A stretch of DNA of 64,000 nucleotides from a virus (IMGVR_UViG_3300031994_000051:1-64000); one strand, 5' to 3'. Shown: positions 45,014 through 63,162, counted from the stretch's first letter. Made by a program: numbers and translations. Notes: generated by a model from the letters alone, not told the origin.

Positions 45014-45050
45014 TTTGCACGTATTGGTATTTTCCGTATCTTTGCATCGT
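45014..45050 (+). promoter_or_regulatory. class-II promoter (array)
   Basis: ...tattttccgTATCTTTGCAtcgt. Confidence 0.5.
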
Positions 45051-45061
45051 AATTAAAATCT

Positions 45062-45208
45062 ATGGTTATGAATAAGAACGTATGTTTGTCAAAGGGTTGC
45101 CCTTATTTGGTAAAGAAGACAATTTATTTTCCGTGGTATGAGAAGATGTACATGTGTGCGAAGCGTTTCATGGTTGACGTGAGCAAGGTTGTTGGATGTG
45201 AAAAGTGA
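45062..45208 (+). CDS. array cassette 1: 48-aa Cys-containing peptide
   Basis: First ATG after class-II promoter 45014-45050. Hairpin+T-run 45243-45271. Confidence 0.3.
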   Translation: MVMNKNVCLSKGCPYLVKKTIYFPWYEKMYMCAKRFMVDVSKVVGCEK

Positions 45209-46116
45209 ATGATTATCAATTGTTTATTTTCGATTGCTTATAGTCGTCCTCTGTCGGGGGCGACTTTTTTGCTGATTACCCTCAATGGATGGTGAACTCA
45301 TGGGATGATCGATCGGTTAGATGGATCCCAATGGGATCGTAACCTGTTGACATCGAGGTTGTTGACGAAGAAGTCCTATGACTCTTCTTGTTTTTCTATA
45401 GTGCTGGTTGCGAAATGTTAAAATCATGATTGAAAAATGGCGATAAACCCAATAAAAAGTTTGTCGTTTTCGAGGTGTTTTCTGCATTTATTAATTTTTA
45501 TTAAGATTTATGTAAATGATTGATGTTTAATGATTTACGATGATGCGAGTTCAAAAAGTCCCCTATAGGGGAAAATTGGTTTTTTGGGTGTGGTTTATGG
45601 TTGTTTTTTGAAATGTTAAAAATGGTGTCCGAAACTGTTGATGGAACGAGTGTTCATGTCGGCGTGTTATCGATCCCATTCGGATCCGTGTCTGGGTTGG
45701 ACATCCGACGGGGGTCGGTTTGGTGACGGACGACTACTACTTCGTCCGTCGTGATCTGGTTATGGATCCCGATGGGATCTGTACTGGATCTTCCCAGCAT
45801 CGTTGTCTAGAGAGTGTCTGCATGGGATGCGCAGAGAAATGGCCTGCCTTCTGGGGAAGGATCCGAGTTGGATCCAATACTGTTGTGGATGCATGGGCCT
45901 TCATGTGAGTTTCCTGCTCATGCATGGAATTTCCTGGGTGTCGGATCCGAGTGGGATCGATCCCGTCGAGTCCAGAAAACCTGCGTAATTTTTGGTGGAT
46001 TCTCTTGACCCGTCCAAAAAATTTTCGTGACGCTGTATAGCTGGGTGTCGGATCCGAGTGGGATCAGTATCCTGTGGGACCTTCTTTCTCCCTGTATGAA
46101 AATTTTTCAGATTTTC

Positions 46117-46150
46117 CTTGACACGTGTCATATTTTTCCGTATCTTTGCC
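46117..46150 (+). promoter_or_regulatory. class-II promoter
   Basis: CTTGACAcgtgtcatatttttccgTATCTTTGCc. Confidence 0.6.
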
Positions 46151-46173
46151 GAGTAATTCAAAAACATAGAGTC

Positions 46174-46365
46174 ATGAAGGAAATATTGAAAGTGTTCTTT
46201 ATATTGCTTGTTGCTGTGTTCGTTGTTCCGCTGCTTTGGTTGTTAATCAAAGAGATATGGTGGCTTATAGTCCCGTTGTTCGCTGGGATTGTGATCGGTG
46301 ACATATTTTGGGTTGCCGTGCTCGTCATATCAATAGTTGTGATTATATGGGCTTTGGCGAGCTGA
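46174..46365 (+). CDS. array cassette 2: 63-aa two-TM membrane peptide
   Basis: Promoter 46117-46150. Hydrophobic MKEILKVFFILLVAVFVVPLLWLL... Confidence 0.5.
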   Translation: MKEILKVFFILLVAVFVVPLLWLLIKEIWWLIVPLFAGIVIGDIFWVAVLVISIVVIIWALAS

Positions 46366-46985
46366 AATTTGGTTTCGCTTGTTTCATAATCGTTTAATTG
46401 TTGGCGGTGGCCGATTCCGAGTATCGGGGTCGGCCATTCGTTTTTTGAAGGGCAATCCGACACTCATTCGGGGCAGGCACTGTGGGAGGATCCCAACGGG
46501 ATCGATCCACGCCGTGGACAGACAAAGTCGCGGGTATCACCGATATGCCTCTGATGGCCATCCAGCTGGAATTCGGATGAGGATCCCAACGGGATCGATC
46601 GGGACGTGCCAGCATATTCTACGTGTTCTTGGCAGTGGATGGGTATGCAAGAAATAGGCTTCACTCTTGACTGGAACGATCCGATTCGGATCCTTACTGG
46701 GAAAATCCAGACTCTTGTTCGGGAAGGCGGCTCTGAGGAAGGTGTCCCGTGATCGAATATCGGATCCGATTCGGATCCTTCTCTGTCAAGAAAAAGTGGA
46801 ATCTCCGTACATGGTAGGATTCCAACGTCTGGTTGTTCAGGATGCAGATCCTAACGGGATCGATCGGCTGGGAAACCATTGTTTTGATCGATCCAGATTT
46901 TTTCTGTTGATTGTTTTTGTAAATTATTGTAAAATAATTAGTTACAAAGATTAGAAAAAATAATTGAAACTTTTTTGAAAAAATG

Positions 46986-47020
46986 CTTGCCAATTCGGGA
47001 AAAAGTTGTACCTTTGTAGC
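46986..47020 (+). promoter_or_regulatory. class-II promoter variant (TACCTTTG), embedded in the ~115-bp conserved upstream module 46910-47022
   Basis: cttgccaattcgggaaaaagttgtacctttgtagc. Confidence 0.5.
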
Positions 47021-47084
47021 ACAAACAAAGGGGGAAACCCCGAAGGACAGACAACACAATTATCAACAATCTAAATTCAAAGTT

Positions 47085-47411
47085 ATGGAAAACAATATCG
47101 AAACCATCACAATCGCAATCAACGGAAAGAGTTACAGACTTGTAGAGGTCAGCGCGGAGCAGGCAAATGGTGAGAAAACCATGTGTCTTGTCACGTTGGT
47201 GACACCTGTCGGTGGAATCACCAAAGCATATCCATTGAAGGATATTTGCGTCCCCGAGGGGACATACGACAACGAGGGCGACCGCTTCATCGTGCGCCAC
47301 TGCACGGACGCGGAGTTCGAGGAGTACAAGAAGCACGCAAAGGAAATAGAGGAGCCAGCCATGCTGCTGCAAGTCCTGCTTGACGTTGCATTGTCGGAAA
47401 TCGACTGCTAA
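47085..47411 (+). CDS. array cassette 3: hypothetical protein
   Basis: Promoter 46986-47020; terminator 47437-47478. Confidence 0.55.
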   Translation: MENNIETITIAINGKSYRLVEVSAEQANGEKTMCLVTLVTPVGGITKAYPLKDICVPEGTYDNEGDRFIVRHCTDAEFEEYKKHAKEIEEPAMLLQVLLDVALSEIDC

Positions 47412-47436
47412 ACTGATTTTTGCCATAATTTTTTAG

Positions 47437-47478
47437 GTCGGGGTTGTCCCTTTCGGGGGCGACCCCTTCCTTTTTTTG
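47437..47478 (+). terminator. intrinsic terminator (cassette 3)
   Basis: GC-rich hairpin gtcgggg...cgacccc + T7. Confidence 0.6.
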
Positions 47479-47877
47479 TGTGTGTCGGCAAGCAACTTCC
47501 GTCGGCAGGAATAAAGGCGGATGCTGGGCAGGATCGATCCCGTTGGGATCCCGTCCAGCCGACGAAGACTTCCATGAGGCGGGAGGTTACTTCGGTGAAG
47601 ACACATCGATGGACATCGATGGGACGATCCAACTGGGATCCGTCACGGCGGAGGGTACCACTCTCTATGTATGTCTTCTTTTCTTCGGCATTTCTTCGGC
47701 ATTTGGTGGCGGATGCGGATTGGCCCCAGTAAGGATCCCAATGGGATCTGTGTCGATCGAGAACCATGACTGCATCCTTTCTTAGAATTTTTCTTGGTTT
47801 TTGTTTTTGTAAATTATTGTAAATTAATTAGTTACAAAAATTAGAAAAAATAATTGGAAAATTTCTCGATTTTTTAT

Positions 47878-47911
47878 CCGTTGTATTGATATTTTTCCTA
47901 TCTTTGCAAAG
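47878..47911 (+). promoter_or_regulatory. class-II promoter, within conserved module 47800-47912
   Basis: ccgttgtattgatatttttccTATCTTTGCAaag. Confidence 0.55.
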
Positions 47912-48008
47912 TAATAAAATATTGTTGTAAGATTATCTATAAGAATCTAAACAACTTGTGTTAAAAACAACAAAGACATAGTTATAAACCATCAAAAATT
48001 AAAGAGTT

Positions 48009-48575
48009 ATGGCAAAACAAATTACAAAGTCACAACTTCAAGCAATGCTTGAAAACATTCAAGGCGAAACCGAAATCACAGTCACAGTCAAGGGCGAGGT
48101 CAAGATGAACAAGACAAACAACCCTTTTTACGAGAAGCAGGGTCGCGCTTGGGTAGCGAAGGATAATGTTGAGAAAATACAAACGAGCGTGTACGCTTTC
48201 GGCGGATCGTATGAGGAAAGGGTCAACGAGGCTCTCGTTGCAGACGGAAGCGCAGGCGACTTCAAGGCCGCTTCGTTGCCGTGGGGCGAGTGGATTGTGG
48301 AGGGCAAGACCATTTCCCACAACGGCAAGGTGTACGCCCGTTGCTACATCGTGGAGGGAAAATCGTCTGTTGTTTCAGTGTCGTACTTGGTCAACGGCAA
48401 GGAAGCCACATCGGAGCAGGAGCAGAGCATCAAGGACTTCACCCCAGAGAAGAAGCCGAGCGCGAAGCAGGAGGCCGCAGGGCTTGAAAGTGGAAAGCAG
48501 GTAATCCCCAATAACATCGACTTGGACAAGGTTGTCCGCGTTGAGGTTGACGGGGCGGAGTACGAAATCGCATGA
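48009..48575 (+). CDS. array cassette 4: hypothetical protein
   Basis: Promoter 47878-47911; terminator 48599-48636. Confidence 0.6.
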   Translation: MAKQITKSQLQAMLENIQGETEITVTVKGEVKMNKTNNPFYEKQGRAWVAKDNVEKIQTSVYAFGGSYEERVNEALVADGSAGDFKAASLPWGEWIVEGKTISHNGKVYARCYIVEGKSSVVSVSYLVNGKEATSEQEQSIKDFTPEKKPSAKQEAAGLESGKQVIPNNIDLDKVVRVEVDGAEYEIA

Positions 48576-48598
48576 CGGAATGTCAGTGACAAAATGTC

Positions 48599-48636
48599 AG
48601 GGGCGGCTCACTTGGTGGGTCGCCCTTTCCTTTTCC
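48599..48636 (+). terminator. intrinsic terminator (cassette 4)
   Basis: gggcgg...tcgccc + T-run. Confidence 0.6.
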
Positions 48637-49213
48637 ATTCCAGACAAGACCGACAGAGTTGGTGGAGGATCGCTGAATCGGATCCCATCGGGATCGATCG
48701 CCCTGGTGAATCCAGGGATGTCTGGACATCCCCTGGTATCCCGTCCAGTTCGGATCCCATCGGGATCGATCACTGTCCAGCATTCACCTCTTCCTCCTGC
48801 CGAAAAATTCAGCAAGGTTTTTTTGAAAAGTTTTCCAGATAAATATCCTGATTTCTTCTATGATTTTCCCACGGAAAATCCCATCGGGTTTTTCTTCATT
48901 TTCCCCGTGGGTTTTTTCCGTGGTTTTGGGCGGGGATTCCAGAGACTGGCCTCCCCGCCTTCTTTGTCTGGCAAACCCCCCCAAGAGATGTGATCCGTGA
49001 AGGAAGTCATTGGATCCCAATGGGATCGATCCTGTGGCCATCTCGTGTTCCATCTCGAACACGGCGTATTATGGATCCCGATGGGATCGATTCAGAACAG
49101 GTCCCCTTTCTTATTCCTTTTTCTGTAAGTTTTTGGTAATGTTTTTGTAAATTATTGTGAATCAAATTGTTACAAAGATTATCAAAAATAATTGAAAAAA
49201 ATCTCTCAAAATA

Positions 49214-49250
49214 CTTGACATATTGATTTTTTTCGTATCTTTGCTTCGTC
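49214..49250 (+). promoter_or_regulatory. class-II promoter, within conserved module 49130-49250
   Basis: CTTGACAtattgatttttttcgTATCTTTGCttcgtc. Confidence 0.6.
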
Positions 49251-49300
49251 AAACGACAAAGGGAAACAAACAATTTACAAACAATCTAAAACACAAGACT

Positions 49301-49597
49301 ATGGCAAAGCAACACAAAATTTACTGCGAAGGCTGCTATTGCAGGCCAATGCAGGTAATCGACAAGAACGGCAACACGGAATGGCGTTGGGTGGTGGTCA
49401 CATTTTCTGACGACTGCACCGAGAACGGCGAGGAAGTGGACATCAATGTCAAAGCGAAAACCGAGGAAGGGCTGGTCAATTCATCCGAGAGCGAGGACAA
49501 TGGCGAAACCGAGAAAATCGTCAAGAACTCAATGACGATGAAAGACCTCTACAAGGGAATCCCTGGCCTCGACCCAGACATGGACGAAGACATCTGA
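49301..49597 (+). CDS. array cassette 5: hypothetical protein (N-terminal CxxC, acidic C-terminus)
   Basis: Promoter 49214-49250; terminator 49627-49664. Confidence 0.55.
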   Translation: MAKQHKIYCEGCYCRPMQVIDKNGNTEWRWVVVTFSDDCTENGEEVDINVKAKTEEGLVNSSESEDNGETEKIVKNSMTMKDLYKGIPGLDPDMDEDI

Positions 49598-49626
49598 CGA
49601 CTTGTCTGTCCAGCATGACAAGATGG

Positions 49627-49664
49627 CCGACATCACTTTGGTGGTGTCGGCTTTCCTTTTTCGT
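49627..49664 (+). terminator. intrinsic terminator (cassette 5)
   Basis: gccgacatcac-tttggtg-gtgtcggc + T-run. Confidence 0.65.
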
Positions 49665-50122
49665 CAAGCTGCTCAGGAAAATCGTGATCCTTCGGTCCAG
49701 ATTCTGATCCCATTGGGATCCAAGACGCTGGATACCAGACTCTTGGATGTATGAACTCGGGTGGTCAGGACGACCTTGAGTCTGGAAAGGTTCCCGTGAT
49801 CTGGTATGGATCCGAGTGGGATCGATCGACAGGTCCCGTCGAGACTCTCTTCTTTGACGACAGGGTGGTATTGAGTACATGACGACATTGATCCTGAAGA
49901 TGTACTTTTGATCTGGTATGGATCCAAATGGGATCGATCCTGTCAGAATCTTGTTCTCTCGATGTCGTGCCTGTTAACTATTCGGTTCATTGTGCAAGAT
50001 TACTCTCACGAGATACTCAACCGTCGGTTAATCCGTTGGATCCCAATGGGATCCGTGATGACCGACGAAGTTTTCTTCGTTTTTTATTCCATAATTTTCC
50101 AGAAAAATTTTTTCCGTTTTTT

Positions 50123-50160
50123 CTTGCGTGGTATTCGGAAAATACTTATCTTTGCATCGT
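50123..50160 (+). promoter_or_regulatory. class-II promoter
   Basis: CTTGCGTggtattcggaaaatactTATCTTTGCAtcgt. Confidence 0.6.
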
Positions 50161-50182
50161 CAAACTTAAAATAAGAAAAACT

Positions 50183-50722
50183 ATGGAAAAAAGAAACGGA
50201 AAATTCGTGGGGAAAAAGGACATTCCCTTCGACAACGACAAAATCGCGGACATTCTTCAACTTAAATGCCGCATACTTGAAATGTTCAGGTCGCGCAATG
50301 TTACCGTAAGTTTCGCCCAGAACATTCCGAACGAGAACTACTATACAGCCGCAAGCGACTTCTCTAAGCTGATGAGTACGGAGCTTACAGTCAGGTTCAA
50401 GCCAGTTACGTCAAAGCGTGGGCTTGTTCAGAGGGGGGCTGGTTTGTGCAAGCGCAAGGTGTCGGCGATCGATCCTTGCGTGCATATCATGTTCTACAAC
50501 CAGCAGGGAATCGACGAGGTGACTGGTGATAGCGAGATACAGCCTTGTGTTTTCATAGGGGTTCATGGGTTTCAGGAAAGGGGATACAGGAAACATCATT
50601 GGGCAGACTATTCTCCGAAGCCTTCCTTCGGCTATGGATATGAAATAGAAACTTTGTGGCAAGATGCGGTCAAACCAGCTATGAATCAAATTTGGAACGA
50701 CATCAACTTGCTGATAGAGTGA
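50183..50722 (+). CDS. array cassette 6: hypothetical protein
   Basis: Promoter 50123-50160; terminator 50744-50780. Confidence 0.6.
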   Translation: MEKRNGKFVGKKDIPFDNDKIADILQLKCRILEMFRSRNVTVSFAQNIPNENYYTAASDFSKLMSTELTVRFKPVTSKRGLVQRGAGLCKRKVSAIDPCVHIMFYNQQGIDEVTGDSEIQPCVFIGVHGFQERGYRKHHWADYSPKPSFGYGYEIETLWQDAVKPAMNQIWNDINLLIE

Positions 50723-50743
50723 TTGTTATAGAAGCAATAAGGT

Positions 50744-50780
50744 AACGGCTTGGGCTTGTGTCCGAGCCGTTTCTTTTTTG
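50744..50780 (+). terminator. intrinsic terminator (cassette 6)
   Basis: acggcttgggc...gagccgt + T-run. Confidence 0.6.
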
Positions 50781-51020
50781 TGTGATAGTACGTCTTGACA
50801 CAGATGAGTCAGTGGATGCCCGTCGATCAGATCCCGATGGGATCCGTTACAGTGGGTTCAGGATCACCATGAGTCCGAGGTTGCGATTGACTTGCTTGAT
50901 GGACTTGGACGTCAATCATCTCGATGCCAGCTGGTTAGGATCCCATTGGGATCGTAACTGGGCATTCGCTGCCGATTCGATCGTCGAATTTTTGTCGAAT
51001 TTTTTCTGAAAACAAAAACA

Positions 51021-51056
51021 AAAAAATCCGCACAATTTTTGTACGGATTTTCTTTG
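51021..51056. terminator. bidirectional terminator (cassette 7 end)
   Basis: atccgcacaa-ttttt-gtacggat flanked by A-run and T-run. Confidence 0.5.
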
Positions 51057-51071
51057 GGGTTTTTCTGGAAT

Positions 51072-51257: not shown

Positions 51258-51263
51258 TGATTT

Positions 51264-56669: not shown

Positions 56670-56707
56670 CTTGGATCGTATCGATATTTTCCGTATCTTT
56701 GCAGCGT
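56670..56707 (+). promoter_or_regulatory. class-II promoter
   Basis: cttggatcgtatcgatattttccgTATCTTTGCAgcgt. Confidence 0.6.
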
Positions 56708-56751
56708 AAAATAAAACGGAAAAATAAACCAAAAAAGAAAGGAAAAAAACA

Positions 56752-57168
56752 ATGAGCAGCGGACATGAATTGCCTTACAGAGGCGAGAGCTTCAAGATAG
56801 TTGGTTGCAAGAATGCAATGGAGAAAAACACACGATCGATGTTTCCAGATCCTAAAGACAATATCGGTATATGGGTCGATTATTTCAGGATCGTCTATGA
56901 CAGGGGTGAACGGATTGAACAAGGATTCGGTTCGGATTCGTTTGTCAGTTACGACAACGGGTATATCGGTATAGAGTGTGCCGATCGTTTCCAGACAGTG
57001 AAGGAAGCGGAGGACTTTATCAAGGTAAAGAAAAGTGTGGTAAACAACTGGTATCGTGGATTCGGCATCAGGAAGACCGAGTACGATAAATCAACGGGAA
57101 CTTACACGCATGAGATTATCAGGCCATGTGAGGCAACCAATAGCGTCACGGTCGATCACCTTAATTGA
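56752..57168 (+). CDS. array cassette 13: hypothetical protein
   Basis: Promoter 56670-56707. Confidence 0.55.
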   Translation: MSSGHELPYRGESFKIVGCKNAMEKNTRSMFPDPKDNIGIWVDYFRIVYDRGERIEQGFGSDSFVSYDNGYIGIECADRFQTVKEAEDFIKVKKSVVNNWYRGFGIRKTEYDKSTGTYTHEIIRPCEATNSVTVDHLN

Positions 57169-57178
57169 AAAAAAAAGA

Positions 57179-57212
57179 CTTGACATTGATATTTTGCTTA
57201 TCTTTGCATCGT
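57179..57212 (+). promoter_or_regulatory. class-II promoter
   Basis: CTTGACAttgatattttgctTATCTTTGCAtcgt. Confidence 0.6.
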
Positions 57213-57232
57213 AATTCAAAAACAACAGAGCT

Positions 57233-57481
57233 ATGGAAACTACAAACAGAAAATGGTATCGCTCCGACTTCACGGCAAAGGGGTTGTTTGACAACACGGA
57301 TATTGATTCGGAATACTACACGGCAGAGAGTGACGCGGAGGCGATCGATCACGGTAAGGAACTCGCGGCAAACGGGGTTGACTTCGCCGACATCGGTCAC
57401 ATCGACATCAAGCTGACCTATATCGCGGAGGTTGACGACACGCAGGAAACTTGGCCAGAGAAAAGAACTGTTTATTATTGA
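57233..57481 (+). CDS. array cassette 14: hypothetical protein
   Basis: Promoter 57179-57212. Confidence 0.5.
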   Translation: METTNRKWYRSDFTAKGLFDNTDIDSEYYTAESDAEAIDHGKELAANGVDFADIGHIDIKLTYIAEVDDTQETWPEKRTVYY

Positions 57482-57693
57482 AAAACAAAACCAGAATTTT
57501 TCAGAGAAAAAAGATCGGGGGAACATCCAAAAGTTCTCCCGATTTTTTTATTTGGGAAAATCCAGAGAAATTCCCACAGGGAATACATGGCGATCGATCC
57601 TGAACTGGATCCCACTGGGATCTATCCAACTTTCTCATCTTCAGAGTCTTGGATGCCATGTTTCATGTGGAACAAAAATTTTACAGAAAAAGC

Positions 57694-57730
57694 TTGACAC
57701 GTATCGATATTTTTCTTATCTTTGCACCGT
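57694..57730 (+). promoter_or_regulatory. class-II promoter
   Basis: CTTGACAcgtatcgatatttttctTATCTTTGCAccgt. Confidence 0.6.
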
Positions 57731-57771
57731 CAATTCAAAAACAGAGTATTAACCTATAAAAGAAAAGACCT

Positions 57772-58305
57772 ATGAAGTACACAAAAATTTTAAGGACTGT
57801 AGCCGATCGTTTAGACACTCAATACGGAGTGTTGTTAACCGACGGAAGAATCATTTCCCTTTACAACGAGGATAACCAGTTTTACCTGAGATGGGACTTC
57901 CCGATCGATCTGGAAACGATGACATACGAACCCCGTTTGGCTGACGAAAACAATGGGGAGATTTCCCTCAACTCACTTGACAGAATTGTTATCGCAGGCG
58001 TGGTCAAGTGCTATGACGAATGCAACTATTATCATGGCACATATCCAGAGGATTTCACCTGCCCAGAGCAGGAACGCTTGGAGATCAATCGTATCGAAGC
58101 CTTCTTCAAGGATAACGGTTATAATGTGTCAAGAGAAGCGATCGAACACAATTTCAACGCTTGGCTCGGTGACATGAAGTCAGGCTACCGTGACGACATC
58201 AACGGATACCACCTGTTCAGCCCGTGCGGTTGCAACCCGTTGTCAATGTGTCTGTCAACGCTCAACACACTGTGTGACGACTGGCAACAGACATACACCT
58301 GCTGA
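57772..58305 (+). CDS. array cassette 15: hypothetical protein
   Basis: Promoter 57694-57730; terminator 58339-58374. Confidence 0.55.
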   Translation: MKYTKILRTVADRLDTQYGVLLTDGRIISLYNEDNQFYLRWDFPIDLETMTYEPRLADENNGEISLNSLDRIVIAGVVKCYDECNYYHGTYPEDFTCPEQERLEINRIEAFFKDNGYNVSREAIEHNFNAWLGDMKSGYRDDINGYHLFSPCGCNPLSMCLSTLNTLCDDWQQTYTC

Positions 58306-58338
58306 GTTTTGCTCATACTCATATCATATTGTTTTTTT

Positions 58339-58374
58339 CCGATCGATCACACCCAGTGGTCGATCGGTTTTTTT
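58339..58374 (+). terminator. intrinsic terminator (cassette 15)
   Basis: ccgatcgatcacacccagtggtcgatcgg + T7. Confidence 0.6.
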
Positions 58375-58664
58375 ATTATCCTTTATTCATCTTTATTCTT
58401 TGATGGAGCATCTCCTCGTCAGGCTGGCGCCAGTCAGATCGATCCCACTTGGATCCATATCGACACGGATACATCCTCCTCATCCCAAGAGTCTGAAGAC
58501 GAACCAGTTAGGATCCCACTGGGATCGATCCTGTGCAGCTGTGCAGGATGTCTGCACACTTGGATCTTTTTCCCAGAAAATTTCCAGAATAATTTTGTAA
58601 ATTATTGACAGATAATAAGTTGGAATATATTTTGAAAAATAGTTGAAAATTTTCTTGGAAAAAG

Positions 58665-58701
58665 CTTGCCAATTCAGATAATTTTCGTATATTTGCATCG
58701 T
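58665..58701 (+). promoter_or_regulatory. class-II promoter (TATATTTG variant), within conserved module 58594-58701
   Basis: cttgccaattcagataattttcgTATATTTGCAtcgt. Confidence 0.6.
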
Positions 58702-58752
58702 CAAACGACAAAGGAACAAACATTATCATTAACATCTAAAAAACAATCAACT

Positions 58753-59391
58753 ATGGGACAGTATTATAAGCCAATCGTCCTGAAGAAGGACTGGAAAAAC
58801 GAGGAACAACCGATCGCTGGTACGCTTTCGCCTTATGACTATGACAACGGCGCGAAGCTCATGGAACATTCCTATGTAGGAAACAGTTTCGTCAAGGCCG
58901 CTATGAAGATGATCGATCTTATCGGTCAGGGAAATGCCGTGCCTTTCGTCTGGTGCGGTGACTATGCCGATCCAGTCGATACATCAAACCATCCCGTCAC
59001 GAAAGATAAAGACGGAAATCTCGTTGGTGGAATCGATTTGTATTCGTGTGCTTGCGCATGGCTTGGCGAGGACAAAAACAGCAAAGAGTACGAAGATCTG
59101 AAAAATACTCTGCAAAATGTAAGCACAGATGAAAAGTGTTACATCATCAACGAGACGAAGAAGCAGTTCGTGCGCATCCCCGATTATGATAAGGACAAGT
59201 GGTTTATCCATCCCCTTCCGATCCTGTGTGCCGACGGCAACGGTCGGGGCGGCGGAGACTACGGCTACTATGCGTCAAAGAACATGAAGCTTGTCGGAAC
59301 ATGGGCACATGACGAGATTCGTCTTGCCGAAAAGAAATCCGACACGGAGGGCTACGAGGATTGCGGCTGGATTCCAGAGTGCGAGGAATAA
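58753..59391 (+). CDS. array cassette 16: hypothetical protein
   Basis: Promoter 58665-58701; terminator 59422-59462. Confidence 0.6.
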   Translation: MGQYYKPIVLKKDWKNEEQPIAGTLSPYDYDNGAKLMEHSYVGNSFVKAAMKMIDLIGQGNAVPFVWCGDYADPVDTSNHPVTKDKDGNLVGGIDLYSCACAWLGEDKNSKEYEDLKNTLQNVSTDEKCYIINETKKQFVRIPDYDKDKWFIHPLPILCADGNGRGGGDYGYYASKNMKLVGTWAHDEIRLAEKKSDTEGYEDCGWIPECEE

Positions 59392-59421
59392 GGGTTCAAC
59401 CGACTTTCATAACTGACTTTG

Positions 59422-59462
59422 GGCGATCGATCCGATTAAGGATCGATCGCCTTTTCTTTTTC
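59422..59462 (+). terminator. intrinsic terminator (cassette 16)
   Basis: ggcgatcgatccgattaaggatcgatcgcc + T-run. Confidence 0.7.
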
Positions 59463-59617
59463 AGAGTGTCAACCCAGACGCAGTATCCCGTCGGTGAATA
59501 TGGCCCCAGTATGGATCCCACTTGGATCGATCGATACGGATTCGTCTTCAAAAGTATCCTCCTGATTTTCAGCAAATTAATTTCCAGAAAAATTCAAGAA
59601 AAATTTCCAAGAAATTT

Positions 59618-59655
59618 CTTGGATTGTATTGGAATTTTTCTTATCTTTGCATCGT
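59618..59655 (+). promoter_or_regulatory. class-II promoter
   Basis: cttggattgtattggaatttttctTATCTTTGCAtcgt. Confidence 0.6.
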
Positions 59656-59689
59656 AAAATAAAACAGGAAAACTAACCTATAAAATAAT

Positions 59690-60313
59690 ATGAATATGAA
59701 GGACAAACTTTTATCTCATGAATCGAAGCTGCAATCCGAACTTGCAGCAATCATGGAAAAACGGTGTGCGGTCAGGAAGGAACTGGAATCCTTGACATCA
59801 TCAATGCTTTTCAGAATGGGCGGATCGATCGACATTGACAACATTGATTCTCCATTATGCGTGTCGTATGACGGAGGCAACCATCCAGAGTACGCATCCG
59901 ATCTTTATGCCTCAGTGGAGACTGTCCGTGCTGTAGGCGGATCATTCGAGGTTGACCTGAACGACTGTGAGCCTAACGTGTATGCGGATCGTCTGTCTTT
60001 CGATGATGTGTGTGCCGTACACGACGCTATCGCTGGATTGTACAGAAGCTGCAACGCTGTTATTTTCGACGCAATCTTAGATGTATTCGGACCTTATATC
60101 GAAAAGATCTTTACCAGCAACGGCACGAGTCCTTATAATATAGAAGTGTCTGGCGGAGCTATCAAAGTTTTATTAAACACAACAGATCGCAGACATTTTC
60201 AGCAAACAAAGATCGATAGTATTGTCTGCAAGTTCCCAGACAGGATCGATAGCGGAGAGTTCCAATATGATCCGAGAAAAAAACCTATGCTTGTGTTCAA
60301 GTTGACGGAATAA
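59690..60313 (+). CDS. array cassette 17: hypothetical protein
   Basis: Promoter 59618-59655; terminator 60358-60398. Confidence 0.55.
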   Translation: MNMKDKLLSHESKLQSELAAIMEKRCAVRKELESLTSSMLFRMGGSIDIDNIDSPLCVSYDGGNHPEYASDLYASVETVRAVGGSFEVDLNDCEPNVYADRLSFDDVCAVHDAIAGLYRSCNAVIFDAILDVFGPYIEKIFTSNGTSPYNIEVSGGAIKVLLNTTDRRHFQQTKIDSIVCKFPDRIDSGEFQYDPRKKPMLVFKLTE

Positions 60314-60740
60314 ACATAAGACTGAACCATAATTCTCGACACATACTTGCTTTTATGGAAAAGTCCCGATCCAATTCGATCAGGGCTTTTCTTTTTTATG
60401 CAAAGACGAAACCACGACTCATCGTTCATTCTTTACCGAAACTTCAGGATCCGACTGGGATCCTTGAATTCCGATCCAGATCATTTAAGCTGCGATCTCA
60501 CGCGATCGATACAATGTTAGCCGATCGATCGAATAATCATACATCATAAGTTAAGTATGTTATATACATGATAAACAATATGTTATGAATATAATCGGAC
60601 AAAATCGGACAAAATTCGATCGTGAACCAGAGCATTTGATCGCAACTTAAAAGGATCTGGATCGGTTTTATGATCCCAGAGGGATCCATGACCTGTGCAG
60701 GAGTATTCTTTATACTTCTTGTCAAAATAAATATAGAAAC

Positions 60741-60777
60741 TTTCCTATATAAAATAACAGGAATTTTATATAGGAAA
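60741..60777. repeat. 37-bp palindrome (15-bp arms) tttcctatataaaat-aacagga-attttatataggaaa upstream of cassette 18
   Basis: Arms are exact reverse complements. Direct repeat aatcggacaaaatcggacaaaattcgatcg at 60593-60622 upstream. Confidence 0.7.
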
Positions 60778-60793
60778 ACTTCAAGAAATTTCT

Positions 60794-61066
60794 ATGGAAA
60801 AATTTTATACTTTTGATGGAGAGAATATTTCCGAAGACGACATAAGGGGAGTGTTCTCGGAAAACCCAGATTGCGGCATGGCTGTCGTATATACAGAGCG
60901 TACTGGTGGAAGGGAACTGGTTAACGGAAGGATGACATGGATCGATCGCGTCCAGACAAAGGTTATTCCGTTCGCTAAGAGGAAACCAGCTTTGGACTAC
61001 ATTGGGTTCCTGAGATCCCAGACGAACCGATCGATCTCGGACATGCACATAGAGGTTGCTGACTGA
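60794..61066 (+). CDS. array cassette 18: hypothetical protein (atypical upstream region)
   Basis: No class-II promoter. Preceded by a 37-bp palindrome 60741-60777. Confidence 0.4.
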   Translation: MEKFYTFDGENISEDDIRGVFSENPDCGMAVVYTERTGGRELVNGRMTWIDRVQTKVIPFAKRKPALDYIGFLRSQTNRSISDMHIEVAD

Positions 61067-61177
61067 AGTGAAGAGAGCTGCTGGCGCTGGTTAGGATCCC
61101 AGTGGGATCCTTTCTTGGACCGAGGAGATGGTCGTTACGGGCGATGATCGATCGTTGTCGAAAAATATCAGAAAAAG

Positions 61178-61215
61178 CTTGACACGTATTGATATTTTTC
61201 GTATCTTTGCACCGT
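61178..61215 (+). promoter_or_regulatory. class-II promoter
   Basis: CTTGACAcgtattgatatttttcgTATCTTTGCAccgt. Confidence 0.6.
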
Positions 61216-61253
61216 CAAACAAAGTAAGACTAACCGATCAAAATCACAACATT

Positions 61254-61841
61254 ATGGCAAACTGGGCATTAGTAACTTATAAATGCGAGTGCAGGGACAA
61301 CCAGCAGGCTGAGGCTTTCACCAAGCTTCTGGACAAACTGAAATCTTTGCCGAAACCATACGCCGAATCAGACTTCGGAAACCTTTGGATGGGATGTGTG
61401 GTGAAGGCACTGGGTGGAGACCCCGACGAAATCAAATGCAGGGGTAAGATATTTGATGACTACGATATTGACGGAAATGTGGTCACTCTCGTCACAGAAC
61501 AGGCTTGGAGTGAGCAGGAGGAGTTCCGCCACCTTGTTGAGGAGACGTATCCTGGCATGAAAATCTGGTATTGCTGCGAAGAGTCCAACGAAGGCATTTA
61601 TTGCACAAACGACACGGAAAGAAAGTTCTTCAAGAGCTGGTACTACCTTGACTACGAAGACGGAGGTGAGTATTTCGACACAATAGAACAGGCTGCGGAG
61701 TTCGTCAGCGACAAGATTGGTATACCAGTCGAGCCTACGATCGAATCGATCGAGGAAGAGATTGAGAAATACCAAGAGGATAACGACTGGTCTGACGAAA
61801 GCTGGATGAATTTTTACGTATTCGATATAATCGACGACTGA
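61254..61841 (+). CDS. array cassette 19: hypothetical protein
   Basis: Promoter 61178-61215; terminator 61877-61915. Confidence 0.55.
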   Translation: MANWALVTYKCECRDNQQAEAFTKLLDKLKSLPKPYAESDFGNLWMGCVVKALGGDPDEIKCRGKIFDDYDIDGNVVTLVTEQAWSEQEEFRHLVEETYPGMKIWYCCEESNEGIYCTNDTERKFFKSWYYLDYEDGGEYFDTIEQAAEFVSDKIGIPVEPTIESIEEEIEKYQEDNDWSDESWMNFYVFDIIDD

Positions 61842-61876
61842 CAAAGGTTGTTTTCATAGGTTCAAATATTGTTTTT

Positions 61877-61915
61877 CCGCTGGGTTTGGTTTTCATTCCC
61901 AGCGGTTTTTCTTTG
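61877..61915 (+). terminator. intrinsic terminator (cassette 19)
   Basis: ccgctggg...cccagcgg + T-run. Confidence 0.65.
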
Positions 61916-62084
61916 TTGCCGACACAAAAAACTCTGAAGTGGCAGGAGATGAGCTGATCTGGATCGATCCCATTGGGATCCGTTTCTGGGCCACGGGTGC
62001 CTTCGGCGTTCTCGGATCCAGATGGGATCGTTGGATTCCAGAATTTTTCTTGGAATTTTTCTGGAAAATTTTTTCGAGATTTTT

Positions 62085-62122
62085 CTTGGATCGTATTGAT
62101 ATTTTTCGTATCTTTGCATCGT
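62085..62122 (+). promoter_or_regulatory. class-II promoter
   Basis: cttggatcgtattgatatttttcgTATCTTTGCAtcgt. Confidence 0.6.
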
Positions 62123-62145
62123 CAAACAATAAAACAGAAAACACT

Positions 62146-62934
62146 ATGAAAAACATTGAAAAGTATTGTCCTGTATGTGGACACAAGTTCGTTCAAGGAG
62201 AAAGCGAATACAACAACGAAACGGCTAACACTGACTATGTTTGCACAGAATGTGGTTGGGAAGGAACTCACGATCAAGTTCTCGATACTGACAAAATCAT
62301 CGAGGATCTTGTTGATGAAATCGACAATGAAGGCATTGAAATCACAACAGAGGATGCAACCAACGTAATTAAGGAGATCCGTTGTGGAGAAAGTTACGAA
62401 AACGCGATCAAGTCGATCGTCAACGGAATACTGGATTGTCTCGGCAATGAAGATGACATCGATCTTTCCGACAAGCTCCAGACCTACAATGGAAGCTACA
62501 ACAAGCGCACCCTCAAAAAAGATGGTCTTTGTATCGTCACTTGGCCAGATTCCCAATCGCTTTGCGAGATGGAAAATTTCTGGGAACACGCTTGGCTTAT
62601 AAATGACGACTACGGCCTTAGAAGGTTCGGATCCTGCGCCTATGTCGTTGAGGAGGACTGGTACACGGAAAATGACATTATTCCAAACGATCTGGTTGAT
62701 ACGATTAGGAGAGCCATTGATCGAATTGGATGCAACGGATTAATCAATGTTGAAAACGACGGGATCGAATTATGTGATGGTGAGGATCCAGAAGGAAACC
62801 CAGAAGGGGAATGGCACTATGTCACCGAGATATTGCCTTGTGGGTTGAAGATGGACAACGGGGATTTCTATGAATACTCGGATCTGTCTGAAAGTGAACT
62901 TGAAAAGGTGCTGGACTATGTAAACGGTATCTGA
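62146..62934 (+). CDS. array cassette 20: hypothetical protein with N-terminal Zn-ribbon (CPVCGH...CTECGW)
   Basis: Promoter 62085-62122; terminator 62956-62998. Confidence 0.6.
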   Translation: MKNIEKYCPVCGHKFVQGESEYNNETANTDYVCTECGWEGTHDQVLDTDKIIEDLVDEIDNEGIEITTEDATNVIKEIRCGESYENAIKSIVNGILDCLGNEDDIDLSDKLQTYNGSYNKRTLKKDGLCIVTWPDSQSLCEMENFWEHAWLINDDYGLRRFGSCAYVVEEDWYTENDIIPNDLVDTIRRAIDRIGCNGLINVENDGIELCDGEDPEGNPEGEWHYVTEILPCGLKMDNGDFYEYSDLSESELEKVLDYVNGI

Positions 62935-62955
62935 TATAAAAAAATAAAAACAGAT

Positions 62956-62998
62956 AAAACCGATCGATCACAATTGGGTGATCGATCGGTTTTCTTTT
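62956..62998 (+). terminator. intrinsic terminator (cassette 20)
   Basis: aaaaccgatcgatcacaattgggtgatcgatcggtttt. Confidence 0.75.
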
Positions 62999-63124
62999 TA
63001 TAAACTATTCGGACGACAGATATGAGCAGATCGCATGGAACATGAGATCCCAGTGGGATCAGACTTCCAGTGAAGAAGACTCGTCGAATTCAGAAAAAAT
63101 AATATAGATTTTCCTTGCGTGGTA

Positions 63125-63162
63125 TCATATTTTTTCGTATCTTTGCACCGTAATTCAAAAAC
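63125..63162 (+). promoter_or_regulatory. class-II promoter
   Basis: CTTGCGTggtatcatattttttcgTATCTTTGCAccgt. Confidence 0.6.

What the first reader, a model, noticed from the sequence alone, without database searches (positions are those of the whole stretch)
45014..63162. Two promoter classes, and >100-bp promoter modules duplicated between cassettes
Regions 1-2 use TTCCGTATATTTGCA with a loosely conserved -33 element (class I). The array uses a much longer, nearly invariant element, CTTGACAcgtatcgatatttttcgTATCTTTGCAtCGT (class II), seen about 21 times on both strands. Class II resembles a sigma70-type -35/-10 pair (TTGACA-N17-TATCTT). The Bacteroidetes -7 motif TAnnTTTG is superimposed on its -10. 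One class-II-like copy sits at 36679 inside region 2. Four cassettes also share a ~110-bp upstream module, tttttgtaaattattgtaaa..aattagttacaaagattagaaaaaataattgaaa.., at 46910-47022, 47800-47912, 49130-49250 and 58594-58701. So entire regulatory modules, not just core promoters, have been copied. Together this suggests a separate temporal class, possibly read by a phage-modified or phage-encoded polymerase or sigma, and a mobile regulatory module.
Basis: seen in the sequence. Interest (0 to 1): 0.6.

Follow-up and report, generated by a model that had tools for sequence, protein, structure and literature searches.

The report
Shuffling promoter cassettes in jumbo phage
A very large phage of a Bacteroidota bacterium carries a roughly 30-kb array of small unknown genes, each with its own copy of a strong host-type promoter, and comparison with related phages shows that recombination between those promoter copies adds, removes and swaps genes, much as described for T4-like phages but in a different bacterial phylum.

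Summary
The window has 10 class I sites (ttCCG-TATATTTG-CA, all on + at 1.5-35.3 kb) and 21 class II sites (cTTGaCA-N17-TATCTTTGCAyCGT; one at 36.7 kb, 20 at 45-63.2 kb, on both strands). Four cassettes share a further 60-78-nt AT-rich upstream module. All of this is far above chance.

Class II is not exotic. It is a full-consensus Bacteroidota sigma-A promoter (-33 TTG, 19-20 nt, -7 TAnnTTTG). The same core occurs in many unrelated viral contigs, and about 79% of the listed bacterial genomes with it are Bacteroidota. No sigma or RNA polymerase gene is found in the roughly 81 kb I could read.

Each cassette is promoter, A-rich leader, ORFan, intrinsic terminator, then 1-6 copies of a 17-nt palindrome. 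The array runs at least 10 kb past the window, giving at least 31 promoters.

Five related contigs show 19 cassette-level rearrangements. Twelve have a breakpoint in a class II promoter or leader, and four are clean promoter-promoter crossovers. This is a Bacteroidota counterpart of the T4 "PeSL" regulatory cassettes.

Early timing for class II and a later class for class I are inferred, not shown.

The palindromes, about 110 nt upstream of the promoters, remain unexplained. A distant relative has them at the same spacing but with a different sequence.

The parts
36679..36716 (+). Class II promoter (TTGCGT...TATCTTTG) outside the array, upstream of ORF 36732-37181
45013..45050 (+). Class II promoter, upstream of 48-aa ORF 45062-45208
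46117..46154 (+). Class II promoter, upstream of 63-aa hydrophobic ORF 46174-46365
46985..47022 (+). Class II promoter, weakest copy (TTGCCA / TACCTTTG), upstream of ORF 47085-47411
47875..47912 (+). Class II promoter lacking TTG at the -33 position, upstream of ORF 48009-48575
49212..49249 (+). Class II promoter, upstream of ORF 49301-49597
50123..50160 (+). Class II promoter (TTGCGTGGTAT subfamily), upstream of ORF 50183-50722
51522..51559 (-). Class II promoter, upstream of ORF 51506-51264
52529..52566 (-). Class II promoter, upstream of ORFs 52519-52196 and 52192-51959
53742..53779 (-). Class II promoter, upstream of ORF 53713-53171
54735..54772 (-). Class II promoter (TATATTTG variant), upstream of ORF 54708-54190
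55699..55736 (-). Class II promoter, upstream of ORF 55678-55130; divergent partner of the next promoter
55925..55962 (+). Class II promoter, upstream of ORF 56002-56466; a crossover partner in relative L220
56670..56707 (+). Class II promoter, upstream of ORF 56752-57168; a crossover partner in relative L220
57175..57212 (+). Class II promoter with a short spacer, upstream of ORF 57233-57481
57693..57730 (+). Class II promoter, upstream of ORF 57772-58305
58664..58701 (+). Class II promoter (TTGCCA / TATATTTG), upstream of ORF 58753-59391
59618..59655 (+). Class II promoter, upstream of ORF 59690-60313
61178..61215 (+). Class II promoter, upstream of ORF 61254-61841; a crossover partner in relative L033
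62085..62122 (+). Class II promoter, upstream of ORF 62146-62934
63114..63151 (+). Class II promoter, upstream of ORF 63172-63864; a crossover partner in relative L033
1545..1579 (+). Class I promoter, upstream of the ClpX-like AAA gene / guanylate kinase / clamp loader / 5'-3' exonuclease operon
5632..5666 (+). Class I promoter; the ATG at 5668 lies 4 nt after the -7 box, so the mRNA is probably leaderless
   Evidence: PMC6847099 for the start-site distance
7391..7425 (+). Class I promoter, upstream of 7458-8336 and the Hsp70/DnaK gene 8433-10340
10391..10425 (+). Class I promoter directly abutting a -22.5 kcal/mol terminator hairpin; the ATG at 10427 would give a leaderless mRNA
14070..14104 (+). 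Class I promoter, upstream of the GrpE-like gene (14126-14599) and DnaJ-like gene (14628-15668)
25418..25452 (+). Class I promoter in a divergent control region
28230..28264 (+). Class I promoter, upstream of 28284-28574 and the SPFH/Band-7 gene
31301..31335 (+). Class I promoter abutting a -24.7 kcal/mol terminator hairpin whose T-run forms the '-33' T block
32639..32673 (+). Class I promoter
35213..35247 (+). Class I promoter abutting a -25.2 kcal/mol terminator hairpin
46897..46974 (+). Long AT-rich upstream module, reference copy (TTTTGTAAATTATTGTAAA...AAAAATAATTGAAA)
47787..47864 (+). Long upstream module, 87% identical to the reference copy
49125..49202 (+). Long upstream module, 73% identical to the reference copy
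58593..58652 (+). Long upstream module, 70% identical (most diverged copy)
44433..63992 (.). 52 copies of the 17-nt palindrome GGATCCCAnTGGGATCC, at most 3 mismatches each. They always lie between a cassette's terminator and the next promoter. Palindrome-to-palindrome gaps are mostly 80-120 bp, and the last copy is centred about 85-125 nt upstream of the -7 box.
45242..63916 (.). About 15 strong intrinsic terminators, one directly after most cassette ORFs (for example 45242-45265, 46406-46438, 47440-47466, 53110-53149 on -, 62956-62993, 63885-63916). Many stems contain CCGATCGATC.

Best explanation
The window comes from a jumbo phage of at least 263 kb that infects a Bacteroidota host. From about 44.4 kb to at least window-equivalent 73.9 kb it carries a hyperplastic array of at least 30 self-contained expression cassettes.

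Each cassette has the same order:
- an A/T-rich upstream tract;
- a full-consensus host sigma-A (sigma-ABfr type) promoter, with -33 TTG, a 19-20 nt spacer, -7 TATCTTTG and an initiation region GCAyCGT;
- an A-rich leader without a Shine-Dalgarno sequence;
- one ORFan, rarely two;
- a strong intrinsic terminator;
- 1-6 copies of a 17-nt palindrome.

Class II promoters are most likely read by the unmodified host RNA polymerase holoenzyme. By analogy with T4 and SPO1, they would drive early accessory or host-takeover genes.

Class I promoters keep the same -7 box. In place of -33 TTG they have a T-run, which in 3 of 10 cases is the tail of an abutting terminator. They also have an invariant CCG just before the box. 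They head long operons for replication, chaperones and packaging-adjacent functions and probably form a second kinetic class.

The similarity among class II copies, and the longer shared modules, result from duplication. They also result from homologous recombination between copies, and that same recombination inserts, deletes and swaps cassettes between related phages.

Shown: the motif classes, the cassette anatomy, the host-type nature of the core, the promoter-located recombination junctions, and stronger conservation of promoter cores than of coding sequence.

Inferred: recognition by host sigma-A alone, early timing for class II and later timing for class I.
For: Motif counts and class separation are.

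Anatomy. The order promoter, ORF, terminator, palindromes holds on both strands.

Host-type core:
- TTG lies 19-20 nt from TAnnTTTG in 18 of 21 class II sites. This matches the published sigma-ABfr consensus (PMC7366714, PMC6847099, PMC2483708).
- The same core occurs in 53 stretches of unrelated low-GC viral contigs, with an A-tract upstream and tt(c/t)G before the box.
- It occurs in at least 120 bacterial genome stretches, and 63 of the 80 listed are Bacteroidota.

The array proteins are ORFans with no paralogy among them.

The array extends beyond the window, with 10 more class II sites.

Recombination:
- In L033 the upstream half of the 61202 promoter is joined to the 63172 cassette. The crossover lies in or just after the shared TTTTTCGTATCTTTGCACCGT.
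- In L034 two extra cassettes sit between two promoter copies that correspond to a single hybrid promoter in the reference.
- L220 lacks cassette 56002-56466, with a 52-bp promoter overlap at the junction.
- Overall, 12 of 19 unique events have a breakpoint within -35..+66 of a class II -7 box, against 3.8 expected (P = 5e-5).

Constraint. Between orthologous positions, class II cores are 92-94% identical, against 86-89% for coding sequence and 84-89% for other intergenic DNA.

The two-architecture layout is conserved in a relative with 70% TerL identity.

Published precedent: the PeSL cassettes of T4-type phages (PMC2839356, PMC4122927).
Against: - There are no expression data, so the order of class I and class II in time is unknown.
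- In Flavobacterium johnsoniae the -33 element is weak or dispensable (PMC6847099). Class I could therefore also be read by host sigma-A unaided and at the same time as class II.
- BLAST breakpoints tend to fall at the edges of conserved elements whatever the mechanism, which inflates the 12-of-19 figure. The four overlap junctions are the clean evidence.
- The strongly conserved class II spacer (CGTATYGATAT) and the palindromes about 110 nt upstream are not needed by a plain sigma-A promoter. They hint at an extra factor.
- Only about 81 kb of a genome of at least 263 kb was readable, so a phage sigma or RNA polymerase cannot be excluded.
- The array, including its coding sequence, has 45-46% GC against 37.5% elsewhere. 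This is unexplained.
Confidence: 0.6

Rival explanations
1. Class II is a distinct temporal class recognised by a phage-encoded or phage-modified RNA polymerase or sigma factor, and its long conserved element is that enzyme's recognition sequence.
For: - The class II element is longer and more conserved than a sigma-A promoter needs. Its information content over -60..+30 is 66 bits, against 51 for class I.
- The spacer and initiation region are conserved, and orthologous cores are more conserved than coding sequence.
- Many jumbo phages do encode their own polymerases (PMC7598289).
Against: - The conserved determinants are exactly the host-type -33 TTG and -7 TAnnTTTG at host spacing.
- The core is common in unrelated viral contigs and in Bacteroidota chromosomes.
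- No RNA polymerase or sigma domain was found in the roughly 81 kb that could be read.
- Extra conservation is expected from recent duplication and gene conversion, and that process is documented here.
Confidence: 0.1
2. There is no functional class difference. Both classes are ordinary host sigma-A promoters fired together. The two 'classes' only reflect ancestry: the array promoters descend from one duplicated ancestor and the operon promoters from another.
For: - Both classes share the -7 box and the CG before it. Between-class identity is 51%, against about 60% within a class.
- The -33 element is weak in at least one Bacteroidota species (PMC6847099).
- Duplication of the array promoters is directly shown.
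Against: - The same two architectures are kept in a relative with only 70% TerL identity, where the array promoters are much less alike. One architecture has a T-run with a lineage-specific flank and heads operons. The other has TTTG at 20 nt and sits in an ORFan/palindrome array. This argues for selection on the distinction.
- Segregation by gene context is strict.
Confidence: 0.2
3. The cassettes are moved by a dedicated site-specific system rather than by general homologous recombination. The 17-nt palindromes at each cassette's 3' side act as recombination sites, in an integron-like or REP-like manner, and the promoter identity is a by-product.
For: - Palindromes flank every cassette.
- Three of the 19 rearrangements are bounded by palindromes. 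One is a copy-number change of palindrome units, 3 versus 5.
- Palindromes are 93-95% conserved between orthologous positions.
- A distant relative has a different palindrome of the same 8+1+8 geometry.
Against: - Four times as many junctions lie in promoters as at palindromes.
- No integrase, recombinase or HUH transposase domain was found in the readable region. The single 'transposase' PHROG label has no Pfam or PDB support.
- The fixed distance of about 110 nt from palindrome to promoter, seen in two lineages, fits a transcription-linked role better.
Confidence: 0.1

Closest known systems
PeSL (promoter-early stem-loop) regulatory cassettes of T4-type phages (Arbiol et al. 2010, PMC2839356; Comeau et al. 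2014, PMC4122927)
   Same: - A repeated composite motif built on the host's consensus vegetative promoter, with an AT-rich upstream tract.
- Concentrated in hyperplastic regions directly upstream of ORFans.
- Associated with stem-loop terminators.
- Indels and replacements between close relatives have their junctions in the repeated motif.
- The terminase is T4-type.
   Different: - The host phylum differs, and so does the promoter grammar: Bacteroidota -33/-7 rather than -35/-10, with no Shine-Dalgarno sequence.
- The terminator is a separate element 60-600 bp upstream, not interleaved with the promoter. The exception is 3 of 10 class I sites.
- There is an additional periodic 17-nt palindrome array.
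- The phage is only distantly related to T4 (31% TerL identity to Lak phages as the best annotated match).
- Mini-circle formation was not tested.
Bacteroidota sigma-ABfr housekeeping promoters (-33 TTTG / -7 TAnnTTTG; PMC7366714, PMC6847099)
   Same: The -7 box is present in all 31 sites, and TTG lies at 19-20 nt in 18 of 21 class II sites. Leaders are A-rich and lack a Shine-Dalgarno sequence. The core is enriched in Bacteroidota genomes.
   Different: Conservation of the spacer, the initiation region and up to 80 nt upstream goes far beyond the host consensus. Class I replaces -33 TTG with a T-run and fixes CCG before the box.
SPO1 host-takeover module and T4 early regions (from my own knowledge, not checked in the paper library)
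   Same: A dense cluster of small genes of unknown function, each or nearly each with its own strong host-type early promoter and terminator.
   Different: Those clusters are shown experimentally to be early. Here the timing is inferred. No periodic palindromes are described for them.
Upstream operator or activator sites acting at about -100, such as KorB OB palindromes of IncP plasmids and FIS sites of rRNA promoters (from memory; a lead only)
   Same: Short palindromes at a preferred distance of about 100-110 nt upstream of many promoters. They are lineage-specific in sequence, which suggests a co-evolving dimeric DNA-binding protein.
   Different: No ParB/KorB-, FIS- or HTH-type protein was identified. 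There are up to six tandem copies about 95 bp apart. The function is untested.
Integron cassette arrays (attC sites)
   Same: A tandem array of single-gene cassettes, each with an imperfect palindrome at its 3' side. Cassette content varies between relatives.
   Different: Cassettes carry their own promoters and terminators. The palindrome is 17 nt, not a 57-141-nt attC. No integrase was found. Most junctions are in promoters.

Membership tests
PeSL-type mobile regulatory cassettes | Repeated motif containing the host's consensus vegetative (early) promoter plus an AT-rich upstream tract | tested here: met
   21 copies in the window and 10 beyond it. There is a host-type -33/-7 at the right spacing and an A/T tract upstream.
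PeSL-type mobile regulatory cassettes | Stem-loop (terminator or attenuator) forming part of the same composite motif | tested here: inconclusive
   Strong terminators and palindromic hairpins lie between cassettes but 60-600 bp upstream of class II cores, not interleaved with them. Three of 10 class I promoters do abut a terminator hairpin.
PeSL-type mobile regulatory cassettes | Preferential location in hyperplastic regions upstream of ORFans | tested here: met
   20 of 21 sites are in the array. The array proteins have essentially no Pfam or PHROG matches and no paralogy.
PeSL-type mobile regulatory cassettes | Indels and replacements between close relatives with junctions inside the motif | tested here: met
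   12 of 19 events have such a junction, and 4 are promoter-promoter junctions with 29-52 bp of overlap.
PeSL-type mobile regulatory cassettes | Formation of excised mini-circles by recombination between neighbouring motifs | not testable with these tools
   Needs outward-facing PCR or long-read data from infected cells or virions.
Sigma-ABfr (Bacteroidota sigma-A) promoter | -7 element TAnnTTTG (TAHHTTTG) | tested here: met
   All 31 sites have it, and none has G at the two variable positions (PMC6847099).
Sigma-ABfr (Bacteroidota sigma-A) promoter | -33 element TTTG/TTG about 19-21 nt upstream of the -7 element | tested here: met
   Class II: 18 of 21 sites at 19-20 nt. Class I: not met as such, because a T-run occupies the position and TTG lies at 16-19 nt in 6 of 10 sites.
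Sigma-ABfr (Bacteroidota sigma-A) promoter | Initiation by host holoenzyme 4-5 nt downstream of the -7 element | not testable with these tools
   Needs dRNA-seq or in vitro transcription.
Sigma-ABfr (Bacteroidota sigma-A) promoter | The same core is used in Bacteroidota chromosomes | tested here: met
   CTTGACA-N17-TATCTTTGCA occurs in at least 120 genome stretches, and 63 of the 80 listed titles are Bacteroidota.
E. coli-type sigma-70 -35/-10 promoter | TTGACA, 16-18 nt, TATAAT-like hexamer | tested here: met
   The literal match is 10-11 of 12 for nine class II sites. This is a formal match only. The host phylum's sigma does not use this grammar (PMC6847099), so it says nothing about the enzyme used.
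Phage-polymerase or phage-sigma promoter class | A cognate phage RNA polymerase or sigma gene in the genome | tested here: inconclusive
   None was found in the window or in 17 kb of flanks. More than 180 kb of the genome was not readable.
Integron | Integron integrase plus attC sites of 57-141 nt; cassettes usually promoterless | tested here: not met
   No integrase domain was found. The palindrome is 17 nt. Every cassette has its own promoter.
CRISPR array | Near-identical direct repeats of 23-50 nt separated by uniform 26-72-nt spacers, uninterrupted by genes | tested here: not met
   The repeat is 17 nt with 0-3 mismatches. Gaps are 49-224 nt. The palindromes are interspersed with genes, promoters and terminators.

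The most novel reading that the evidence does not exclude
The real regulatory unit may be larger than a promoter. It would be a lineage-specific 17-nt palindrome held about 110 nt upstream of each array promoter, and repeated about every 95 bp further upstream. The palindrome would be the binding site of an unidentified phage-encoded protein, which would co-evolve with it. That protein would switch the whole ORFan array on or off as one block, as a phage-wide early-gene enhancer, silencer or insulator. It might also mark cassette boundaries for exchange. If so, this clade of Bacteroidota jumbo phages has a previously undescribed array-level control system layered on PeSL-like shuffling.
Probability: 0.2. 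Interest if true: 0.8.

Novelty: new variant of a known kind. Interest (0 to 1): 0.5.

Why it matters
- It extends the one well-documented mechanism for ORFan turnover in large phages, recombination between repeated promoter cassettes, from T4-like phages of Proteobacteria to an uncultivated jumbo phage clade of Bacteroidota. That phylum has a different promoter grammar.
- The evidence is direct junction data from five related metagenomic contigs.
- It supplies a ready-made set of about 31 natural, strong, compact Bacteroidota expression cassettes (promoter, leader and terminator). These could serve as parts for Bacteroides or Prevotella engineering.
- It gives a clear, testable prediction of an early and a later promoter class for a phage group with no transcription data.
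- The conserved palindrome-to-promoter spacing in two lineages with unrelated palindrome sequences points to an unknown DNA-binding regulator worth finding.

Tried and rejected
- Near-identity search of 1-25000 against annotated phages found no match. The best annotated relatives are Lak megaphages, at only 31% TerL identity.
- The exact class II 22-mer and the palindrome were searched in IMG/VR. There were no hits and only single chance-level hits respectively. The 21-mer around the -7 box hit only unrelated contigs with generic Bacteroidota promoters.
- No tRNA or tmRNA was found in the window, and no Rfam family in 43-64 kb. The palindrome spacers are therefore not known RNAs.
- The palindrome regions were read as a repeat-protein gene. 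Their ORFs translate to Arg/Ser-rich, noncoding-looking sequence. The spacings are not multiples of three, and the ORFs show no similarity to each other or to the array proteins.
- CRISPR-like and integron-like readings were rejected on repeat length, interspersed genes, and the lack of cas or integrase genes.
- The long AT-rich module was tested as an RNA structure. Its fold z-scores of -1.3 to -1.7 are not significant.
- The 'transposase' PHROG label on 33305-33763 has no Pfam or PDB support.
- Helical phasing of the palindrome gaps is only suggestive. The Rayleigh P is 0.008 at 10.5 bp, uncorrected, and the gaps are not independent.
- The lineage-specific flank of class-I-like promoters in relatives, AAGTTG-TAnnTTTG-CAAC, was considered as a sign of a phage-specific factor. 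That motif is itself generic in viral contigs, with at least 120 stretches.
- A sigma, anti-sigma or RNA polymerase search in all window ORFs and in the precomputed Pfam hits of the flanks found nothing.

Full report
**What the window is**

The window encodes a T4-type large terminase, a ClpX-like AAA protein, a clamp loader, a 5'-3' exonuclease and Hsp70/DnaK. It also encodes DnaJ, GrpE, an amidase/endolysin and guanylate kinase.

Exact-protein look-ups place it on two contigs of one metagenome assembly, ENA ERZ27256871. These are k141_5109889 (173,474 bp) and k141_1823860 (90,046 bp), so the genome is at least 263 kb. No annotated phage is close. Megablast finds nothing, and the best terminase matches are Prevotella Lak megaphages at 31% identity.

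A Bacteroidota host is inferred from three features: the TAnnTTTG promoter boxes, the A-rich leaders without a Shine-Dalgarno sequence, and the taxonomic distribution of the promoter core described below.

**Check of the observation**

I listed all 95 TAnnTTTG occurrences with their context. This gives two extended families.
- Class I is ttCCG-TATATTTG-CA. It has 10 sites, all on the + strand, with -7 boxes at 1569, 5656, 7415, 10415, 14094, 25442, 28254, 31325, 32663 and 35237.
- Class II is cTTGaCAcgtatygatatttttcg-TATCTTTG-CAyCGTmA. It has 21 sites. One is at 36703, fifteen more are on + and five are on - (51535, 52542, 53755, 54748, 55712).

Shuffle controls give 0.13-0.15 expected matches, against 6 and 18 observed for the two test patterns. 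Position-weight matrices built from the two sets recover exactly these 31 sites on both strands. Leave-one-out scoring assigns every site to its own class.

All sites precede ORFs. For class II the first ATG is 23-110 nt from the -7 box and the ORFs are 48-262 aa.

'Nearly invariant' is overstated. Only three copies lie within one mismatch of the 33-nt consensus. Mean pairwise identity over -30..+16 is 62%. There are at least four spacer subfamilies.

The long upstream module is real. Copies lie at 46897-46974, 47787-47864 (87%), 49125-49202 (73%) and 58593-58652 (70%). Four exact hits to a 22-specified-base pattern compare with 0.12 expected. Local alignment scores are 27-58, against a shuffled maximum of 18. 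Other promoter pairs also share long upstream stretches, for example 59642 with window-equivalent 66462.

**Anatomy of the array**

Between 44.4 and 64 kb the order of elements is strictly repeated on both strands. It runs class II promoter, A-rich leader, one ORF (rarely two), a strong intrinsic terminator with a 9-17-bp stem and a T-run, then 1-6 copies of the 17-nt palindrome GGATCCCAnTGGGATCC, then the next promoter.

There are 52 palindromes here and one elsewhere in the window, against 0.24 expected.

Only about half of the array is coding. The array ORFs have almost no Pfam or PHROG matches and no detectable paralogy.

Sequence from the source contig shows that the array continues at least 10 kb past the window end, with ten more class II promoters and nine more palindromes. 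A further class I site lies 5.9 kb upstream of the window start, in front of the DNA polymerase B gene.

**What class II is**

In 18 of 21 class II sites a TTG lies 19-20 nt upstream of the TAnnTTTG box. This is the published layout of the Bacteroidota housekeeping promoter: -33 TTTG and -7 TAnnTTTG, with initiation 4-5 nt after the box (PMC7366714, PMC6847099, PMC2483708).

The core CTTGACA-N17-TATCTTTGCA is not specific to this phage.
- It occurs in 53 stretches of many unrelated, mostly low-GC IMG/VR contigs. These typically have an A-tract before it and tt(c/t)G just before the box.
- It occurs in at least 120 stretches of bacterial genomes. Of the 80 listed, 63 are Bacteroidota by their titles.
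- Even the downstream GCAcCGTCAAA is seen in unrelated phage contigs.

The match to E. coli -35/-10, at 10-11 of 12 positions, is therefore a formal coincidence. Class II is the more host-like of the two classes.

What is specific to this lineage is the spacer (CGTATYGATAT), part of the leader (for example TAACCnATnAAA in eight cassettes) and the upstream modules.

**What class I is**

Class I keeps the -7 box and fixes CCG directly before it. A T-run (cTTTtTtg) occupies the -33 position.

In three of ten sites (10415, 31325, 35237) this T-run is the tail of a -22 to -25 kcal/mol terminator hairpin that abuts the promoter. That is a composite terminator-promoter arrangement.

Two sites, 5656 and 10415, place an ATG 4 nt after the box, which predicts leaderless mRNAs (start-site distance from PMC6847099). 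A 93%-identical relative keeps the 5656 arrangement.

In relatives with 70-73% TerL identity, the syntenic promoters have the same architecture but the flank aGTTG-TAnnTTTG-CAAC. That flank is itself generic in viral contigs, so it is not evidence for a phage-specific factor.

**Are modules mobile?**

A metagenome scan with a class II 22-mer, and look-ups of homologues of one array protein, gave five related contigs. These are L033, L034, L220, L221 and L222, at 72-90% nucleotide identity in aligned blocks. They carry the same promoters and palindromes and are largely colinear, but they differ by whole cassettes.

Clear cases:
- In L033 the region upstream of, and through, the 61202-type promoter is joined directly to the homologue of gene 63172. 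The two cassettes at 61254-62934 are therefore absent there. The switch of similarity occurs in or just after the stretch TTTTTCGTATCTTTGCACCGT, which both window promoters share.
- In L034 two extra cassettes (129 and 108 aa) lie between two promoter copies. Their outer halves together correspond to the single promoter at window-equivalent 72769.
- L220 lacks cassette 56002-56466, with 52 bp of promoter overlap at the junction.
- L221 has an extra 272-bp unit, with a 52-bp overlap at the 68953 promoter.

After merging events shared between relatives, there are 19 rearrangements.
- Twelve have a breakpoint within -35..+66 nt of a class II -7 box, against 3.8 expected (binomial P = 5e-5).
- Three are bounded by palindromes. 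One of these is a change from 3 to 5 palindrome units.
- Four lie elsewhere, including C-terminal domain swaps that create a chimeric gene in L033.

One caveat applies. Alignment ends tend to coincide with the edges of conserved elements, so the overlap junctions are the strongest evidence.

Between orthologous positions, class II cores are 92-94% identical and palindromes 93-95%. Coding sequence is 86-89% identical and other intergenic DNA 84-89%. Promoter cores and palindromes are thus constrained or homogenised, and the spacers are not.

**Most likely mechanism**

The array is a hyperplastic region of accessory ORFans. Each ORFan is packaged as an autonomous expression unit built on a strong host-type promoter. 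Homologous recombination between the repeated promoter and leader sequences, and occasionally the palindromes, duplicates, deletes and exchanges units. This also keeps the regulatory sequences alike.

This matches what was shown for PeSL cassettes in T4-type phages. There the repeats are sigma-70-consensus early promoters with AT-rich upstream tracts and stem-loops. They lie in front of ORFans, and recombination between them explains the differences between sister phages (PMC2839356, PMC4122927).

By analogy with those phages, and (from my own knowledge) with the SPO1 host-takeover module, class II units are probably early genes read by unmodified host polymerase. Class I operons for replication, chaperones and packaging-adjacent genes probably form a second kinetic class. 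A switch that disables -33 recognition, like T4 AsiA/MotA, would fit the difference between the classes. That is pure inference.

**What does not fit a plain promoter story**

The palindromes do not fit. The promoter-proximal palindrome is centred 85-125 nt upstream of the -7 box in 17 of 30 array promoters (median 113). It is at 155-169 nt in the five promoters that carry the long AT module, as if that module were an insertion of about 55 nt. Gaps between neighbouring palindromes are 80-120 bp in 27 of 32 cases.

The 220-kb relative, IMGVR_UViG_3300012983_000031 (TerL 70% identical), has an equivalent array. Its palindrome has the same 8+1+8 geometry but an unrelated sequence, TAATGTCAnTGACATTA. 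At all seven of its array promoters that I could read, the palindrome is centred 103-116 nt upstream.

Conserved geometry and spacing with a lineage-specific sequence suggest a co-evolving dimeric DNA-binding protein, or a cruciform with a structural role, linked to promoter function. I found no candidate protein. As RNA the element would form an 8-bp stem of about -12 kcal/mol with no U-tail. It lies downstream of strong terminators, so a DNA-level role seems more likely.

**On the phage-polymerase idea**

No sigma, anti-sigma or RNA polymerase domain appears in any window ORF. None appears in the precomputed Pfam hits for genes on 7 kb upstream and 10 kb downstream of the window. More than 180 kb of the genome could not be read with the tools available, so the idea is unsupported rather than excluded.

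**Verdict**

The two classes and the mobile modules hold. The special-polymerase idea does not.
- The feature is a new variant of a known kind, namely PeSL-like regulatory cassettes in a Bacteroidota jumbo phage clade.
- The palindrome array is an unexplained addition that deserves its own follow-up.

Noticed in passing
window 44433-63992 (52 copies); one more at 12892-12908; nine more on L215 10805-19441: A 17-nt palindrome, GGATCCCAnTGGGATCC, often extended to CCAGTAT...ATACTGG. It always lies between a cassette's terminator and the next promoter, in runs of 1-6 about 95 bp apart, within GC-rich, poorly conserved spacers. The palindromes themselves are 93-95% conserved in relatives. Function unknown.
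   Followed up: partly
L267 1-5800 and L255 (IMGVR_UViG_3300012983_000031, 220 kb): A relative with 70% TerL identity has an analogous array. Its palindrome, TAATGTCAnTGACATTA, has an unrelated sequence but the same 8+1+8 geometry. It is centred 103-116 nt upstream of all seven array promoters that were readable there.
   Followed up: partly
window 44348-44412 and 44478-44577: Two perfect or near-perfect tandem repeats sit at the left edge of the array: GGCACTTCCGAATACCCTTTTTTAG x2.6 and TTCCGTTTACAA x8.2. They look like iterons (an origin or a protein-binding array). They share TTCCG with the class I flank, and two public assemblies break there.
   Followed up: no
whole window: CCGG is completely absent (0 observed, about 98 expected). 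CTAG is at 0.03-0.17 of expectation. GATC is 2-4-fold over-represented and GATCGATC 37-175-fold. This suggests strong restriction avoidance together with a favoured GATC-containing word.
   Followed up: partly
window 44600-64000 versus 1-44000: The array has higher GC (coding 46%, spacers 45%) than the rest of the window (37.5%), while its promoter segments are 29% GC. The cause is unknown. Different origin or recombination-associated bias are possibilities.
   Followed up: no
window 1603-2739, 8433-10340, 14126-14599, 14628-15668: The phage encodes a ClpX-like AAA protein and a full Hsp70 system: DnaK, a GrpE-like protein and a DnaJ with J, CXXCXGXG and C-terminal domains. All are behind class I promoters. 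Assignment of GrpE and DnaJ to these particular ORFs is inferred from batch Pfam hits plus sequence.
   Followed up: partly
window 5656-5670 and 10415-10429: Two class I promoters place the ATG 4 nt after the -7 box, which predicts leaderless mRNAs. The arrangement at 5656 is kept in the 93%-identical contig L029.
   Followed up: partly
window 25339-25440: The divergent control region between the minus-strand operon ending at 25338 and the class I promoter at 25442 contains four copies of TGTCTAGA(T/C), including a perfect hairpin. It looks like an operator.
   Followed up: no
window 12164-25338, minus-strand genes: The large minus-strand genes (for example 15729-18497 and 21838-23784) have neither a class I nor a class II promoter upstream. 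A third promoter type, possibly late, may exist.
   Followed up: no
L033 (reverse complement 1572-2291) versus window 62146-62934 and 63172-63864: A relative encodes a chimeric 239-aa protein. Its N-terminal part matches gene 63172 and its C-terminal part matches gene 62146. Domains as well as whole cassettes are therefore exchanged.
   Followed up: partly
window 51000-55800: A block of five cassettes is inverted relative to the rest of the array. It ends in a divergent promoter pair (55712 on -, 55949 on +). The inversion is shared by relatives L220-L222.
   Followed up: no
window 33305-33763: A 152-aa ORF matches a PHROG family labelled 'transposase' (E = 2e-11) but has no Pfam or PDB support. 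Its relevance to the palindromes is doubtful.
   Followed up: yes
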